In this document: one piece after another, positions 55,525 to 61,856 of the stretch
How the letters are laid out: each line of letters opens with the position of its first letter
Position numbering within the stretch: the first letter of the stretch is position 1
Assembly (NCBI RefSeq): GCF_044324875.1
Contig: NZ_CP172185.1
Source of the DNA: Escherichia coli
Lineage (GTDB): Bacteria; Pseudomonadota; Gammaproteobacteria; Enterobacterales; Enterobacteriaceae
Length of the DNA stretch: 64,000 nucleotides
Direction: 5' to 3' (one strand)
The notes under the pieces: model-generated
Told to the model about the DNA's origin: nothing
What the model saw: only the letters and a program-made list of their open reading frames with translations
Database searches by the model: none
Position numbers and translations under genes: made by a program

Positions 55525-55560
55525 ACCGGAAAGCACTGTACTTTCCGGTTATGGCTTTTA
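55525..55560. terminator. Terminator between repressor and dam
   Basis: Hairpin ACCGGAAAG..CTTTCCGGT followed by a T-rich tract. Confidence 0.45.
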
Positions 55561-56322
55561 GAAATTGCAGATCACCAGCTCACGGCGTGGAGTTGATTTG
55601 CCTGCCAGACTGTAGTTGATGTTCACTGTCTGTATGTTCAGTCCAGTGAACACCTCGCGCATCTGCGGGATGTCGTTCACCGAAATTATCATCTTTCCTC
55701 TGATGCACCGGGCCAGCTCTGCCAGCCGCGAGTAGTTCCCTTCAGGAAAATCCACACCATAGCCTTCTGTACCCAGATACGGCGGGTCACAGTAGAACAG
55801 CGTGTGCGGACGGTCATAGCGCTCAATGCACTGTTGCCAGTCCATGTGTTCTATCACCGTTCTGGAAAGCCGCAGGTGTGCCGCTGACAGTTCTTCCTCG
55901 ATACGCAGCAGGTTGAAGCGTGGCGGGGATGTGGTGGAGGTGCCGAAGCTGTGCTCTGCCACCTTGCCGCCAAACGCCTGCTTCTGGAGGTAGTAGAACC
56001 GTGCTGCACGCTGGATATCCGTCAGTGTTTCTGTCGGGGTGATCTGCAGCCATTTGTAGATCTGCCGGCTGACCAGCGCCCATTTGAACTGGCGGACAAA
56101 TTCTTCCAGATGATGTTTTACCACCCGATACAGATTTACCAGTTCACCATTGATATCGTTAATGACTTCGAGCTTACCAGGTGTCTTAAGAAAATAGAGC
56201 GCTGCTGCGCCGCAGAACGGCTCCACGTAACATTCATGCGCCGGAAACAGCGGCAGGATGTGTTTTGCCAGGCGACGTTTGCCACCAATCCATGGAACGA
56301 TGGGTAATGTCTGCATTTTCAT
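55558..56322 (-). CDS. dam: DNA adenine methyltransferase (Dam-like, no adjacent restriction gene)
   Basis: 254 aa; SAM motif EPFCGAAALYF and catalytic DPPY. Confidence 0.85.
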   Translation of the reverse strand: MKMQTLPIVPWIGGKRRLAKHILPLFPAHECYVEPFCGAAALYFLKTPGKLEVINDINGELVNLYRVVKHHLEEFVRQFKWALVSRQIYKWLQITPTETLTDIQRAARFYYLQKQAFGGKVAEHSFGTSTTSPPRFNLLRIEEELSAAHLRLSRTVIEHMDWQQCIERYDRPHTLFYCDPPYLGTEGYGVDFPEGNYSRLAELARCIRGKMIISVNDIPQMREVFTGLNIQTVNINYSLAGKSTPRRELVICNF

Positions 56323-56514: not shown

Positions 56515-56730
56515 TTATCCGGGGCGATTTTCTGACCTTATCTGGTCCAGGGCATAAGTGATCCCTTCTGCAAAAACAGAAGTATCAAACTGCTTTTGTA
56601 TTTCCTGAAAATGAACAGTGGCACGACAGACACTCAGTTCTCCGCGATGTAACCGGATAATATCTTCCAGAACATTGTTCACTGCTTCGGCACGGCGCTG
56701 ATGTTCTGTTAACGTTAATCGGGGATTCAT
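56515..56730 (-). CDS. Hypothetical 71-aa phage protein
   Basis: Strong SD AAGGAG 6 bp upstream of ATG; no family recognised. Confidence 0.55.
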   Translation of the reverse strand: MNPRLTLTEHQRRAEAVNNVLEDIIRLHRGELSVCRATVHFQEIQKQFDTSVFAEGITYALDQIRSENRPG

Positions 56731-57107
56731 GATGCACTCCTTAAATGATGATTTTTATGTACTCACCGGCAAAATATTCTGCCGATTACTGAACACGCAT
56801 CCGGCTCCTCAGGTTTTGATTTATTCTGGTTTTTTCGATATCCCGGACCAGGTTGATCACGACAGAAAAAGTGCCGGTATTTTATTGATACGCTGATATG
56901 GCTTCGGGATAACAGCTATATTCGTTACTCTCAGTTGCTGGCTGTGGGAGCGGCTGATGTCGTCCTCACGGAAAAAACGCTCTGTCTGCTCAATGCCATG
57001 CCGACCTTTCTGCAGCCCCGGCCCGTACCATTTAAAGAGTCACTTCTGGATGCAGTAAAAACCGGTGAAAATGCAGTCATCGCTGAATGCGTATCCCGGA
57101 TTATGCG

Positions 57108-57656
57108 TTACGTGTTTAATGAACGTAAGTGAGGTTTATCCGCTGTCTGCATAATCCCGATAGCCAGTGCGAGGGGAAGCAATTCCGGGGAAACTCTTTC
57201 AAACAGCGATTCCCATTCTCCTCTCGCCATCACTCTGTCCAGCCCGCCCTCCAGCTGCATTTCAGCAATCTTCCTGATTTCCCGGAACAACGCCGCTTTG
57301 ATCTCTTCATGCTCAGCTTTATTTTCCGGTGTCAGAATGTATTCGTCGAAGAACCGGGGAGGCTGGTTAACGGGGGGCATGTTCACCGGGATGTGTTCCT
57401 GTATCCCGTACTCCGGGGCTGAAAAACATTTTGTTGTCTGACCGGTGAGTTTGCGTAACACCTTCATGAGTTGCTCCTGAAGCAGCTCATTCGTCCGACA
57501 GATACGCTCGTCGTCCACAACTGCGGCATCGACAATGACGCTTTTTCCAAATTCCTTTTTCACCATCTCTTTTATACGCGTCAGAACGTAACTTTTACCG
57601 CTGCCTACAGGCCCGGACACTCTGACGGTGATGGTCGGCTTCGGTGTGACTGTCAT
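57108..57656 (-). CDS. P-loop NTPase-like protein of unknown function (182 aa)
   Basis: Start at internal ATG with SD AAGGAGA 7 bp upstream; Walker A GPVGSGKS at residues 14-21; divergent from the lysis cassette. Confidence 0.6.
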   Translation of the reverse strand: MTVTPKPTITVRVSGPVGSGKSYVLTRIKEMVKKEFGKSVIVDAAVVDDERICRTNELLQEQLMKVLRKLTGQTTKCFSAPEYGIQEHIPVNMPPVNQPPRFFDEYILTPENKAEHEEIKAALFREIRKIAEMQLEGGLDRVMARGEWESLFERVSPELLPLALAIGIMQTADKPHLRSLNT

Positions 57657-57787
57657 TCTGTATCTCCTTTGTGAGTGATCCAGCGTGTATTCTGCATACC
57701 CCGAACACGCCTCTCTCTTAACGCGCTTTAAAATCCTCCGCGCCACGCTTTTGCCATGCTGTCTCCACACAACAAGGAGACATTTTC

Positions 57788-58138
57788 ATGAAACCATTCA
57801 CTTCCCTTATCGTTGACGTACAAAAAACCCGCCTGCGTGGATGGCTTGTTGCGGCCGTGCTGCTGCTCCTCATCATCGCGCTGGTCTCACCCCAGCAGTT
57901 GCCGGTGGTGGTGTACAAGCTCTCTCTCATCTCCCTCGCCGCCGTGCTCGGCTACTGGCTGGACCGCTCACTCTTCCCGAAGGCCCGTCCGGGGCAGTAC
58001 CTGAAGCATGACGAGCGCCTCATGGCTGAGGGGCGCTGGCCCGTACAGACCGGCCTTCACCTGGTGTTTTCTGCTGCGTTAATCCGCCGTGCACTGATTG
58101 TTGCAGCTGTCTGTCTGGCTGTTGCGATGGGGCTTTAA
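57788..58138 (+). CDS. Putative holin (membrane protein, first late/lysis gene)
   Basis: 116 aa with 2-3 hydrophobic helices; AAGGAGA SD; immediately precedes the endolysin. Confidence 0.55.
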   Translation: MKPFTSLIVDVQKTRLRGWLVAAVLLLLIIALVSPQQLPVVVYKLSLISLAAVLGYWLDRSLFPKARPGQYLKHDERLMAEGRWPVQTGLHLVFSAALIRRALIVAAVCLAVAMGL

Positions 58139-58875: not shown

Positions 58876-59167
58876 CCTGCTAAAAAATCTGCCGTGGCGC
58901 AGTCTGCTGCTGGCAGTGCTCATAAATGCTTTTCTGATTGGACTTTATTACCTGGGCTACAAAAGTGCAAAATGGCATCTGAATCGATCGCAGTTTGGCA
59001 TTCGAATCGATCATGATTTGGCATCCATCTCCGATCACAGTTTGGCATCACAATCGATCACGATTTGGCATGCTTCCGATCATTGATTGGCATCCTGCCA
59101 GTCACTCCGGGAATTAACTCTTTTCACCACAGTCTCCATTGCCGTGTTTAAACCAGTGGAGACGTCA

Positions 59168-60733
59168 ATGTCCAGAAAGAGAAAATCCAGGAGCACTATG
59201 GAAACCTGTTTTAAGATCCTTCAGCTCAAGTTCGACAAGAAGCTGACTAACCGTTGTATCGGACTGACGTTACACATCAGCGCCTCAACCGTTTTTGAGG
59301 TTCTTGCCCGCTTCAAAGCCTCTTCTCTGTCATGGCCATTACCTGCTGATATATCCCATGACACGCTGGAGAAACTCATTTTTCCGCCCAAAGACACCTT
59401 TGCATCAGAGCTTGTAATGCCTGACATGTTGTACTTCGATACGGAAATGAGAAAACCAGGTGTGACGCGGCAACTGTTGTGGATGGAATACAAGGCACAG
59501 GCGGGTAACAAAGCGATGGGATACTCGCACTTCTGCCGTTGCTACCGGGAGTGGAAAAAAACGCGACGTCTCTCCATGCGCCAGGAGCATCGTGCCGGCG
59601 AAAAGCTTTTTATCGACTTCTGTGGTCCTACGGTTCCTGTTATTAATCCGGACACCGGTGAGATACGCCGCGTGGCAATCTTCGTGGCCGTAATGGGGGC
59701 GTCCAACTATACCTACGTTGAAGCGTGCGAAGGTCAGGACATGATGTCATGGTTAAATGCCCACAGCCGTTGCCTGACCTTCCTGGGCGGCGTACCGAAG
59801 CTGCTCATCCCCGATAACCTCAGAAGCGCAGTGAAAAAGGCCGATCGATATGAGCCTGTCATCAACGACAGTTATCAGGCACTGGCTGAGCACTATGGCA
59901 CGGTTATCATCCCGGCCCGACCACGCAAACCTAAAGATAAACCAAAAGCAGAAAACGGCGTCCTCATCGTTGAACGATGGCTTCTTGCCCGCATCCGTAA
60001 TGAAACCTTCCACACGCTCAGGGCGCTGAATGCGCGCCTTAGGGAGTTACTGACAGACATGAATAACCGGCCAATGAAGGGGTACGGCAATCAAACCCGT
60101 GCAGAACGCTTCCGCATACTGGATGCGCCAGCACTCTCTCCGCTGCCTCTGGCACCTTATGAATACACGGAATACAAAGCTGTGAAGGTTGGCCCTGACT
60201 ACCACGTTGAATATGCCCGTCACTGGTACTCCGTTCCACACGAACTGGTCGGTCAGCGTCTGTCACTGAAGGCGGGGCAGTCGGTGGTACAGCTCTGGCA
60301 CAAGGGGCAGTGTGTGGCGCAACATCCGCGCAGCACACATGAATATAAACACACAACCAATCCGCTTCACATGCCAGAGCGCCACCGGCAGCACGGGACA
60401 TGGACACCGGAACGCCTGATCGAGCAGGGAAAACGTACGGGCCCGTCCACAGGCCGGGTGGTTGAATCCATGCTGAAGGCAAAACCCCATCCGGAACTGG
60501 CTTATCGTGCAGTTCTGGGGCTGCTGGCACTTCAGAAAAAATACGGCCCGGAACGGCTGGAAAAGGCCTGTTACGTTGCCCTGCACTATAACGCCCCTGA
60601 CAGACGCTTTATCGACAATCTGCTGCGTCACCATCGGGAGAACCTGGAGCTTCCATTATCCCGCCAGGGCGAACAACATCCGGCATATGCTTCAGAGCAT
60701 GAAAACCTGCGTGGTCCGGGCTACTACCACTGA
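59168..60733 (+). CDS. istA: IS21-family transposase IstA
   Basis: N-terminal HTH, DDE core; alternative start at 59198 (METCF...) has an AGGAG SD. Confidence 0.8.
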   Translation: MSRKRKSRSTMETCFKILQLKFDKKLTNRCIGLTLHISASTVFEVLARFKASSLSWPLPADISHDTLEKLIFPPKDTFASELVMPDMLYFDTEMRKPGVTRQLLWMEYKAQAGNKAMGYSHFCRCYREWKKTRRLSMRQEHRAGEKLFIDFCGPTVPVINPDTGEIRRVAIFVAVMGASNYTYVEACEGQDMMSWLNAHSRCLTFLGGVPKLLIPDNLRSAVKKADRYEPVINDSYQALAEHYGTVIIPARPRKPKDKPKAENGVLIVERWLLARIRNETFHTLRALNARLRELLTDMNNRPMKGYGNQTRAERFRILDAPALSPLPLAPYEYTEYKAVKVGPDYHVEYARHWYSVPHELVGQRLSLKAGQSVVQLWHKGQCVAQHPRSTHEYKHTTNPLHMPERHRQHGTWTPERLIEQGKRTGPSTGRVVESMLKAKPHPELAYRAVLGLLALQKKYGPERLEKACYVALHYNAPDRRFIDNLLRHHRENLELPLSRQGEQHPAYASEHENLRGPGYYH

Positions 60734-60749
60734 CAGAAGGAACAACAGT

Positions 60750-61505
60750 ATGAGTGATAACCTGTTAAACAAACTGACCCAACTGAAACTCCCGGCGATG
60801 GCCGGGAGCCTGATACGGCAGCGGGAAACGCCTCAGACCTACGACGAACTGTCGTTCGAGGAAAGGCTGACGCTGCTGGTTGATGACGAGCTTCTGAGCA
60901 GGGAAAACAGCCGTGTGGCACGGTTGAGAAAAAATGCCGGCCTGAAATACCAGGCAACACCGGAAGGGCTGCGCTATCCGGCCTCAAGAGGTCTGCGGGC
61001 TGAACAGATGAGAGAACTGCTGAACGGCCACTACATAACCCACAGGAAAAACCTGCTGATAACCGGTCCGACAGGATGTGGCAAGAGCTGGATAGCCAAT
61101 GCGCTGGGCGAACAGGCATGTCGACAGAAACACAGCGTCCGGTACTGTAGAACCGGGCGATTACTGGAACAACTGGCTCAGGGACGTGTTGATGGCAGCT
61201 GGCTGAAATATCTGAAACAGTTGCAAAAAATACAGGTTCTAATCCTGGACGATCTGGGGCTGGAACAGTTAAGTAACGCCCAGTGTAATGACCTTCTGGA
61301 GCTCATAGAGGATCGTTACGGACAAAGCAGCACGATAGTGGTAAGCCAGTTCCCGGTAGATAAATGGCATGGTCTGATGGAGAACCCAACAACAGCAGAT
61401 GCCATCCTGGACAGACTGGTACATAACTCACACCGAGTGGTCCTTCAGGGAGAGTCACTGAGGAAAAATCCCCCGGTAGTGGAAAGCAGCGAAAAAACGC
61501 GTTAA
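60750..61505 (+). CDS. istB: IS21-family helper ATPase IstB
   Basis: 251 aa; Walker A GPTGCGKS and Walker B LILDDLG; start at internal ATG (MSDNLLNKLTQLKLPAMAGS). Confidence 0.85.
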   Translation: MSDNLLNKLTQLKLPAMAGSLIRQRETPQTYDELSFEERLTLLVDDELLSRENSRVARLRKNAGLKYQATPEGLRYPASRGLRAEQMRELLNGHYITHRKNLLITGPTGCGKSWIANALGEQACRQKHSVRYCRTGRLLEQLAQGRVDGSWLKYLKQLQKIQVLILDDLGLEQLSNAQCNDLLELIEDRYGQSSTIVVSQFPVDKWHGLMENPTTADAILDRLVHNSHRVVLQGESLRKNPPVVESSEKTR

Positions 61506-61856
61506 AAAGCGGTAGAAAAAGTTAAGTTCCCGGTTGATCGAATGGATGCGAATCGCTGATCGGACTTCGATGCCAATCCGTGATCGAATAGAGCGGAATA
61601 CGCAAAAGCGGGCATGAAAACGCCACGCGCGACGGCGATAAGGCGATCAGTGAGTTGCAGTCAGCATTCGACACATACAAAACGGAGCAGGCAATGCTTG
61701 AGAACGCTGCATTGCGAGCATGGGCAAAACGGTATCAGGAGCAGGTGGCCGCTGGGCAGCAGGCTGAGGCCGGTTATCTTGAGCAGATTGCTCAACTGGA
61801 GAGTCAGAACAAACAACTACAGGGGCAAATTAACGATGTCACACAGCGCTGGATTG

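What the first reader, a model, noticed from the sequence alone, without database searches (positions are those of the whole stretch)
57108..57787. Orphan P-loop NTPase-like gene divergent from the prophage lysis cassette
A 182-aa protein with a strong SD and a Walker A motif (GPVGSGKS) close to its N-terminus, followed by about 140 aa with no recognisable family. It sits alone on the minus strand, separated by 131 bp from the holin-endolysin-spanin block. Small N-terminal P-loop proteins of this shape are typical of nucleotide or polynucleotide kinases and of kinase-type toxins, so a defence, anti-defence or toxin role is plausible. That role is inference only; I could not place it in a named family from sequence.
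Basis: partly seen in the sequence, partly recalled or inferred. Interest (0 to 1): 0.75.

Follow-up and report, generated by a model that had tools for sequence, protein, structure and literature searches.

The report
Deletion allele of orphan phage P-loop gene
The gene is real and carries a Walker A motif, but it is a rare, internally deleted copy of a common, uncharacterised accessory gene of Mu-like E. coli prophages, not a recognisable kinase, toxin or defence gene.

Summary
The ORF is real: window 57108..57656 (-), 182 aa, AAGGAG 7 nt before the ATG, GPVGSGKS at aa 15-22, 131 bp from the holin start.

It is not an orphan and not alone. It belongs to PHROG 3787 (unknown function, E 6e-89). 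A 71-aa gene and a Dam methylase follow on the same strand. A convergent 134-aa gene, frameshifted here, overlaps its 3' end.

Family members sit in 582 of 5426 complete E. coli genomes, always as the first gene divergent from the holin of BcepMu-like prophages. The usual forms are 242-247 aa. Only 18 genomes carry the 182-aa form.

Distant relatives share only a ~75-aa N-terminal mini P-loop module. It occurs alone (73-90 aa) or fused to very different tails. The window allele has two in-frame deletions (36 and 29 codons). They remove the second half of that module (W61, P64, E74) and most of the next module.

Best reading: a mosaic, dispensable accessory gene in the variable immunity-to-lysis region, probably impaired here, in a prophage that also carries an IS21-family insertion in its spanin-like gene. 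Its function is still inference.

The parts
57108..57656 (-). CDS of the 182-aa protein (stop 57108-57110), the short allele of PHROG 3787
   Evidence: identical to WP_021537374.1 in Ec1117
57664..57669 (-). Shine-Dalgarno AAGGAG, 7 nt before the ATG
   Evidence: conserved in 7 loci
57591..57614 (-). Walker A motif GPVGSGKS (aa 15-22)
   Evidence: G15, G20, K21 and S22 are invariant or nearly so in 40 family members
57504..57509 (-). Junction of in-frame deletion 1 (36 codons, 108 bp, relative to 242-247-aa alleles). It is bounded by a GAGCG direct repeat in the long alleles and removes D57, W61, P64, T68, L72 and E74 of the N-module.
57477..57482 (-). Junction of in-frame deletion 2 (29 codons, 87 bp). 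It removes most of 'module B' (PWILPDALHATIAALMTVYD).
57111..57359 (-). C-terminal helical module (about aa 100-182). It is nearly identical between alleles (dS 0.04-0.09) and absent from the 141- and 158-aa alleles.
57657..57787 (.). 131-bp divergent intergenic region shared with the holin gene. It holds a conserved block TTTTAAAG(C/G)GC(G/T)TTAA and the holin SD hairpin. No sigma-70 consensus promoter was found.
56729..57132 (+). Convergent 134-aa gene (PHROG 2266, unknown function). It overlaps the 3' end of the P-loop gene by 25 nt. A 1-bp deletion near 56862/56863 frameshifts it here.
56515..56730 (-). 71-aa gene (PHROG 4490, unknown function), same strand, downstream
55558..56322 (-). 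DNA adenine methylase (Dam, MethyltransfD12), last gene of the same-strand run
57788..58138 (+). Holin (PHROG 1528), divergent neighbour and first gene of the lysis cassette

Best explanation
The gene is a rare deletion allele of a mosaic accessory gene family (PHROG 3787) of BcepMu-like transposable prophages of Enterobacteriaceae.

Shown. The gene is always the first gene transcribed divergently from the holin, at the edge of the variable region between the immunity repressor and the lysis cassette. All other E. coli alleles (141, 158, 242, 247 aa) keep a ~75-aa N-terminal mini P-loop module followed by a helical 'module B'. The module reads strand - GxxGxGKS - helix - strand - ER..D...W..P - strand - E. 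Its conserved residues are G15, G20, K21, S22, E50, W61, P64 and E74. In other phages the module also occurs alone or fused to unrelated tails. The window allele keeps the strand, Walker A, helix and second strand (aa 1-51) and the optional C-terminal helical module. Two in-frame deletions removed the second half of the N-module and nearly all of module B.

Inferred. In full-length proteins the mini-module binds a nucleotide or another phosphate-bearing ligand through the Walker A lysine and serine, with conserved acidic residues (E50, E74) nearby. The exchangeable helical tails would direct this to a host or phage partner. The protein is a soluble, dispensable accessory factor. It is probably co-transcribed with the 71-aa gene and dam, and acts in phage-host conflict (host takeover, anti-restriction or exclusion), not in virion production. 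In this window the nucleotide-dependent core is probably crippled, so at most a C-terminal-module function remains. The prophage is also decaying: it has an IS21-family insertion in the spanin-like gene and a frameshifted neighbouring gene.
For: Family and position:
- PHROG 3787 match at E 5.9e-89, in two stretches that skip about 65 profile positions.
- PhiKM has a 242-aa homologue in the same slot.
- All 24 IMG/VR loci, plus L003, L004, L010, L011 and L015, have the gene divergent from holin and SLT.

Allele spectrum:
- 582 of 5426 E. coli genomes carry the family; 483 have a match covering at least 80% of the 247-aa gene, and 18 have the 182-aa form.
- Both 182-aa lineages share the same deletion boundaries, with GAGCG repeats at junction 1.

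The module:
- An exhaustive HMM search gives 69 hits. The remote ones share only residues 1-75, with tails of 0 to ~290 aa.
- The conserved residues are listed.
- AlphaFold gives pLDDT 90-95 for the module in the 247-aa form. The window form scores about 80-84 for aa 11-40 and below 50 for aa 46-109.
- The module profile hits PDB P-loop proteins only over the strand, Walker A, helix and second strand.

Accessory status:
- The gene is absent from BcepMu, phiE255 and KP12.
- Many frameshifted or truncated alleles exist.
- The cassette downstream is swapped in the 158-aa type.
- The protein is soluble: the highest Kyte-Doolittle 19-residue window is 1.29.

Operon inference:
- The genes share a strand, and no minus-strand terminator is predicted between the P-loop gene and dam.
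- dam follows the gene within about 0.2-0.9 kb in L015, L022, L023 and L044.

Prophage decay.
Against: - No biochemical or genetic datum exists for any family member, and the literature searches found nothing on this gene.
- Nucleotide binding is inferred from motif conservation alone. Three members have GKN instead of GK[ST].
- DSSP on the models calls no beta-strand in the module, and I could not inspect the coordinates.
- The 182-aa allele remains an intact ORF in two lineages that are 84% identical. dN/dS is 0.44 in the retained N-terminal part (P=0.046) and the Walker A is unchanged. This argues that it may still be functional.
- Co-transcription with dam is not shown. No promoter was detected, and the 158-aa type has no dam at all.
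- Nothing here separates a role in conflict from any other accessory role.
Confidence: 0.55

Rival explanations
1. The 182-aa allele is a functional, streamlined variant. The Walker A strand-loop-helix plus the C-terminal helical module would suffice for activity, or would have gained a new one. The two clean in-frame deletions would then have been selected, not merely tolerated.
For: - Both deletions are in frame, and AlphaFold joins the remnants into one continuous helix, aa 51-71.
- Two lineages that are 84% identical share the deletions and stay intact, with Walker A unchanged. dN/dS is 0.44 in the N-terminal part (P=0.046) and 0.19 in the C-terminal module.
- The allele occurs in 18 complete genomes from poultry, humans and wild birds.
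Against: - It lacks W61, P64 and E74, which are conserved in 36/38, 32/38 and 36/38 family members.
- It lacks module B, which every other E. coli allele retains.
- Model confidence collapses.
- The allele is rare: 18 genomes against 483 with the long form.
- The divergence between the two 182-aa lineages may reflect recombination with long alleles and not long persistence. dS differs about 7-fold between the two halves of the gene.
Confidence: 0.2
2. One reading: a small N-terminal P-loop kinase (nucleotide or polynucleotide kinase) or kinase-type toxin that acts in defence or as a toxin.
For: - The Walker A lies close to the N-terminus and the protein is small.
- There are weak hits to guanylate kinase (E 0.059), Zeta_toxin (E 0.047 on the module), cytidylate kinase (1 of 24 members) and PADLOC SngB (E 3.8e-4).
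- Frequent truncation of the gene in prophages could reflect counter-selection of a toxic product.
Against: - All these hits cover only the Walker A segment and fall far below family cut-offs (for example 12.6 bits against 263 for guanylate kinase).
- The SngB hit drops to E 0.026 for the full-length protein.
- The conserved unit is 75 aa, and everything after it is predicted helical.
- There is no obligate partner gene. The 134-aa neighbour is deleted next to full-length alleles.
Confidence: 0.08
3. The gene, or its conserved 5' part, serves the lysis or late-gene programme. It might modulate holin-endolysin timing, or its 5' coding DNA might carry cis-acting sites for the divergent late promoter. 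Either would explain why it always sits next to the holin.
For: - Its position next to the holin is invariant in every enterobacterial locus examined.
- The intergenic region holds a strongly conserved block and an SD-sequestering hairpin.
- One remote homologue fuses the module to a PG_binding_1 domain typical of endolysins (P0085).
Against: - The module is conserved at protein level in unrelated phage contigs, where no neighbouring gene matched a lysis family.
- BcepMu, phiE255 and KP12 have homologous lysis cassettes without this gene.
- The protein is soluble, with no predicted membrane segment.
- The PG-binding fusion is a single case.
Confidence: 0.1

Closest known systems
PHROG 3787 (unknown function), e.g. 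Escherichia phage PhiKM XRL29432.1 (242 aa) and E. coli WP_000194949.1 (247 aa)
   Same: Homologous over the whole retained sequence (62% identity counting gaps, about 86% over aligned residues). Same slot, divergent from the holin. Same SD and start context.
   Different: The window protein lacks 36 + 29 internal residues. These are the second half of the N-terminal module and most of module B.
Walker A segment of ABC-transporter nucleotide-binding domains and other P-loop NTPases (the source of the automatic names 'ABC transporter ATPase', 'KAP family NTPase' and 'P-loop NTPase family protein')
   Same: The strand, GxxGxGKS, helix and following strand resemble the ABC pattern 'GPSGCGKS..I......G.I.IDG.D' (best PDB hit ABCB1, E 2e-5, module positions 6-44).
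Designed minimal phosphate-loop proteins (PDB 6c2u 'phosphate-loop protein'; 9jix 'De Novo Designed ATPase')
   Same: Similar size and beta-(P-loop)-alpha architecture. They are among the best sequence hits (E 7e-5 and 2e-4). From my own knowledge, not tested here: such designed P-loop prototypes bind nucleotides and nucleic acids.
   Different: They are laboratory designs built from consensus P-loop sequences, so the similarity probably reflects consensus Walker A features and not descent. No activity is known for the phage module.
Accessory ('moron') genes in the repressor-to-holin interval of other BcepMu-like phages (BcepMu gp18-gp20, phiE255 gp47-gp50, KP12_281-283)
   Same: Same genomic interval, variable content, mostly unknown function, and not part of the conserved early or late modules.
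   Different: No sequence similarity. Those genes are mostly on the holin or repressor strand, and some are membrane proteins. The gene here is soluble and divergent from the holin.

Membership tests
PHROG 3787 | Significant match to the family HMM | tested here: met
   E 5.9e-89, 298.6 bits. The match falls in two stretches; the best-scoring one is aa 60-182 on profile 125-242 of 242, and the deleted part is skipped. The full-length relative P0008 scores E 3.8e-151 over profile 1-242.
PHROG 3787 | Complete N-terminal ~75-aa module (G15, G20, K21, S22, E50, W61, P64, E74) | tested here: not met
   The window protein keeps G15-S22 and E50 but lacks D57, W61, P64, T68, L72 and E74.
P-loop NTPase superfamily (canonical fold) | Walker A GxxxxGK[ST] after a beta-strand | tested here: met
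   GPVGSGKS at aa 15-22, preceded by TITVRVS. GK is invariant in 40 members.
P-loop NTPase superfamily (canonical fold) | Walker B (hhhhD/E) on a neighbouring strand | tested here: inconclusive
   SVIVD (aa 39-43) is a possible candidate. The family-wide hhhLEE ending in E74 is deleted in this allele. No structure is available to decide.
P-loop NTPase superfamily (canonical fold) | Three-layer alpha/beta/alpha core with a parallel sheet of about 5 strands | tested here: not met
P-loop NTPase superfamily (canonical fold) | NTP binding or hydrolysis | not testable with these tools
   Needs biochemistry.
Nucleotide / polynucleotide kinases and kinase-type toxins (NMP kinases, Zeta toxin) | Profile match beyond the Walker A segment, with substrate-binding or LID regions | tested here: not met
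   Guanylate kinase E 0.059, 12.6 bits against a cut-off of 263, aa 5-32 only. Zeta_toxin E 0.047 on module positions 7-42. No kinase appears among the structure matches.
Toxin-antitoxin pair | Obligate adjacent partner gene | tested here: not met
   The overlapping 134-aa gene is reduced to 18 codons next to intact 247-aa alleles (L004, L026, L032). It is intact next to a 182-aa allele in LH50-c.
Known anti-phage defence systems (PADLOC-DB v2) | Significant match to a defence protein model | tested here: not met
   The best hit is SngB at E 3.8e-4, 17.6 bits. It falls to E 0.026 for the full-length relative. The neighbours give no hits.
ABC transporter ATPase (automatic database name) | ABC signature LSGGQ, Walker B, and Q, D and H loops | tested here: not met
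   None of these motifs is present in the sequence. Pfam ABC_tran matches 1 of 24 module sequences at E<=0.001, over the Walker A region only. The NCBIfam ABC hits score 13-17 bits against cut-offs of 220-379.

The most novel reading that the evidence does not exclude
The ~75-aa N-terminal unit would be a natural, autonomously folding minimal P-loop domain, smaller than any characterised P-loop NTPase. Phages would use it alone (73-90-aa proteins) or as a constant head on exchangeable helical tails. It would then be a polymorphic effector family acting in phage-host or phage-phage conflict, found in about 11% of complete E. coli genomes, including many ST131 strains. The window copy would be a natural half-module mutant of that system.
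Probability: 0.2. Interest if true: 0.6.

Novelty: new member of a known kind. Interest (0 to 1): 0.28.

Why it matters
The window gene itself matters little. It is a rare, probably impaired allele in a decaying prophage.

The family behind it is more interesting. It is widespread: 582 of 5426 complete E. coli genomes carry it. It is entirely uncharacterised and is mislabelled 'ABC transporter ATPase' or 'KAP family NTPase' in databases. It is built on a 75-aa Walker-A-containing module that also exists as a stand-alone protein in unrelated phages.

If that module really binds nucleotides, it would be a natural counterpart of the designed minimal P-loop proteins used to model the origin of NTPases. 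The head-plus-variable-tail architecture would then point to a new class of phage accessory effectors.

The practical gain from this work is corrected annotation and a clear set of alleles (75-aa module alone, 141, 158, 182 and 247 aa) for experimental comparison.

Tried and rejected
- PHROGs, NCBIfam, PADLOC and Pfam on the protein, on the full-length relative and on the isolated module gave only PHROG 3787 and weak Walker-A hits.
- PDB sequence searches with two profiles gave P-loop hits limited to the Walker A segment.
- PHROG and NCBIfam scans of ten long-tailed relatives, looking for informative fused domains, found only other unknown-function PHROGs (18255, 17476, 21394, 35734, 25421). 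One sub-threshold match to a chlamydial effector family I regard as noise.
- Neighbours of remote homologues were all of unknown function.
- A second large protein search with the module profile added only more short hypothetical proteins.
- The search for related loci with the diverse module alignment failed for lack of a conserved stretch. A narrower alignment worked.
- Two literature searches found nothing on this gene.
- The promoter scan found no sigma-70 consensus in the 131-bp intergenic region.
- I considered a toxin-antitoxin pairing with the 134-aa gene and rejected it on gene-presence patterns.
- I considered a membrane or tail-anchor role for the hydrophobic C-terminal stretch and rejected it (KD maximum 1.29).

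Full report
**The observation**

The minus strand carries an ORF at 57108..57770. The supported start is the ATG at 57656, giving 182 aa. An AAGGAG lies 7 nt upstream, GPVGSGKS is at aa 15-22, and the holin ATG at 57788 is 131 bp away. The SD and ATG are conserved in six other prophage loci. The gene is real:
- It matches PHROG 3787 at E 5.9e-89.
- It is 100% identical to WP_021537374.1 of E. coli Ec1117.
- Substitutions against other alleles are biased towards synonymous changes (dN/dS 0.20-0.29 in the N-terminal part, P<=0.002).

**Context**

The window carries a BcepMu-like (Bcepmuvirus) transposable prophage. Its gene order is:
- the early operon (Ner-like, IclR-like HTH, DUF3102, transposase, ExeA/MuB-like, Gam ... 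Mor) on the minus strand;
- an HTH repressor on the plus strand;
- dam, a 71-aa gene and the P-loop gene on the minus strand;
- holin, SLT endolysin, spanin-like genes, terminase and the rest on the plus strand.

So the gene is not alone on its strand. The 71-aa gene (PHROG 4490) and dam follow it, with no predicted minus-strand terminator between the P-loop gene and dam; the only one lies inside dam.

In related prophages a 134-aa gene (PHROG 2266, no Pfam match) lies convergent to it and overlaps its last 25 nt. A 1-bp deletion near 56862/56863 frameshifts that gene in the window.

The window prophage is 99.985% identical to that of Ec1117 over the aligned 13.7 kb. The exception is a 2.6-kb IS21-family element (istA/istB) inserted at 58966..61602 in the spanin-like gene, with a 6-bp target duplication.

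**The family and its alleles**

Close homologues are almost all from E. coli, with some from Citrobacter and Salmonella. Their lengths vary:
- 247 or 242 aa is the common form. Database clusters have 785, 243 and 124 members, and phage PhiKM has the 242-aa form.
- 158-aa and 141-aa forms keep the N-terminal 135 aa only.
- The 182-aa form is the window's.
- Many further copies are frameshifted.

Among 5426 complete E. coli genomes, 582 carry a family member. Of these, 483 have a match covering at least 80% of the 247-aa gene; many of those listed are ST131. Some have the 158-aa type, and 18 have the 182-aa allele.

A codon alignment shows the 182-aa allele differs from the long form by two in-frame deletions. 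The first removes 36 codons and is bounded by GAGCG direct repeats. The second removes 29 codons. A second 182-aa lineage, P0002 at 84% identity, has the same boundaries.

Synonymous divergence is 0.36-0.63 in the 5' half but only 0.04-0.09 in the 3' module. A recombination breakpoint therefore lies inside the gene.

**What is conserved**

I searched 1.84 billion representative proteins exhaustively with a profile and obtained 69 hits. The remote hits share only the first ~75 residues. That module reads hTITVSGPxGxGKS - helix - hIIID - xxERxxxGxDxxxWxxP - TIFKLEE. Its conserved residues:

| Residue | Conservation |
|---|---|
| G20, K21 | invariant |
| G15, S22, I28, W61, E74 | >=90% |
| E50, P64 | about 85% |

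The module occurs alone in 73-90-aa proteins. Two of these I verified as complete genes inside phage-like contigs. It also occurs fused to unrelated tails, giving proteins of 196-364 aa. The tails match only other unknown-function PHROGs.

In enterobacterial BcepMu-like prophages, every gene carrying the module is the first gene divergent from the holin. This holds whatever its tail (140 to about 290 aa among the non-E. coli-type alleles in IMG/VR, and 343 and 364 aa in two assembled contigs). It holds in all 24 IMG/VR loci and 5 other loci.

What lies downstream is swapped between prophages:
- C-terminal module + 134-aa gene + 71-aa gene + dam; or
- dam within about 0.2-0.9 kb, without the 71-aa and 134-aa genes; or
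- in the 158-aa type, two membrane proteins transcribed with the repressor and no dam.

BcepMu, phiE255 and Klebsiella KP12 have other genes in this interval and lack the family. The gene is therefore accessory, with a constant head at the edge of a variable region.

**The window allele**

All other E. coli alleles keep the N-module plus 'module B' (aa 1-135 of the long form). The window allele has lost the second half of the N-module (D57, W61, P64, T68, L72, E74) and nearly all of module B. It retains the optional C-terminal helical module.

AlphaFold gives pLDDT 90-95 for the module in the 247-aa protein. For the window protein it gives about 80-84 for aa 11-40 and below 50 for aa 46-109. 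I read this as a probably impaired allele.

There is counter-evidence. The ORF and the Walker A are intact in two diverged lineages, and dN/dS between them is 0.44 (P=0.046).

**Is it a P-loop NTPase, kinase, toxin or defence gene?**

- The Walker A motif is present and strongly conserved.
- Sequence similarity to known P-loop proteins is limited to the strand, Walker A, helix and next strand. The best hits are ABC transporters (E 2e-5) and designed phosphate-loop proteins (E 7e-5).
- Pfam, NCBIfam and PADLOC hits are weak and scattered over many P-loop families.
- A 75-aa unit cannot form the canonical five-stranded NTPase core on its own, and everything after it is predicted helical.
- The protein has no membrane segment.
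- The 134-aa neighbour is not an obligate partner.

The kinase, toxin or defence reading is therefore not supported. A role somewhere in phage-host conflict remains a reasonable guess, given the location, the mosaicism and the dispensability.

**Mechanism, with its basis marked**

Shown: family membership, position, allele structure, module conservation, and the absence of a canonical fold match.

Inferred:
- The mini-module binds a nucleotide or phosphate ligand through K21 and S22, with E50 and E74 nearby.
- The tails give partner specificity.
- The gene is expressed with the 71-aa gene and dam from the divergent intergenic region.
- This function is lost or weakened in the window allele.

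No publication on the gene was found.

**Verdict**

This is an ordinary, probably degenerate allele of a widespread but uncharacterised accessory gene. The interesting object is the family's minimal P-loop module, not this copy.

Noticed in passing
window 58966..61602: An IS21-family element (istA 59087..60733, istB about 60507..61505) is inserted with a 6-bp target duplication into the spanin-like gene that follows the SLT endolysin. The prophage is otherwise 99.985% identical, over the aligned 13.7 kb, to the uninterrupted one in E. coli Ec1117. The prophage is probably defective in lysis.
   Followed up: partly
window 56729..57132 (+): The 134-aa gene of PHROG 2266 (unknown function, no Pfam match) is convergent with the P-loop gene and overlaps it by 25 nt. 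A 1-bp deletion near 56862/56863 frameshifts it here. It is intact in LH50-c and FORC_031 and reduced to 18 codons in LR-31.
   Followed up: partly
window 57755..57790 (+): On the holin mRNA strand a hairpin GUCUCC-N9-GGAGAC pairs the holin Shine-Dalgarno sequence, and an outer CAUG/CAUG stem pairs the start codon (dG -12.9 kcal/mol, z -3.1). The stem bases are invariant in 7 prophage loci. This may be translational control of the holin.
   Followed up: partly
window 57700..57735: A conserved block (minus strand: GATTTTAAAGCGCGTTAAGAGAG) in the divergent intergenic region is kept even in prophages whose holin is only 66% identical. It is a candidate activator or late-promoter element. No sigma-70 consensus promoter was found in this region.
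   Followed up: no
L038 5503..7619 (IMG/VR contig, 158-aa allele type): In prophages with the 158-aa allele, the C-terminal module, the 134-aa gene, the 71-aa gene and dam are replaced. In their place are two predicted membrane proteins (196 and 328 aa) on the repressor strand, directly downstream of a 153-aa HTH repressor. This arrangement resembles BcepMu gp17-gp18. They are candidate superinfection-exclusion genes.
   Followed up: no
L018 1919..2398 (protein P0085): A 159-aa protein from a short metagenomic contig fuses an N-terminal PG_binding_1 domain of the endolysin type to the mini P-loop module. This is the only fusion of the module to a domain of known function that I found.
   Followed up: partly
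window 55525..55549: A 9-bp-stem hairpin lies between the convergent 3' ends of the repressor gene (ends 55439) and dam (ends 55558). It is probably a shared terminator.
   Followed up: no
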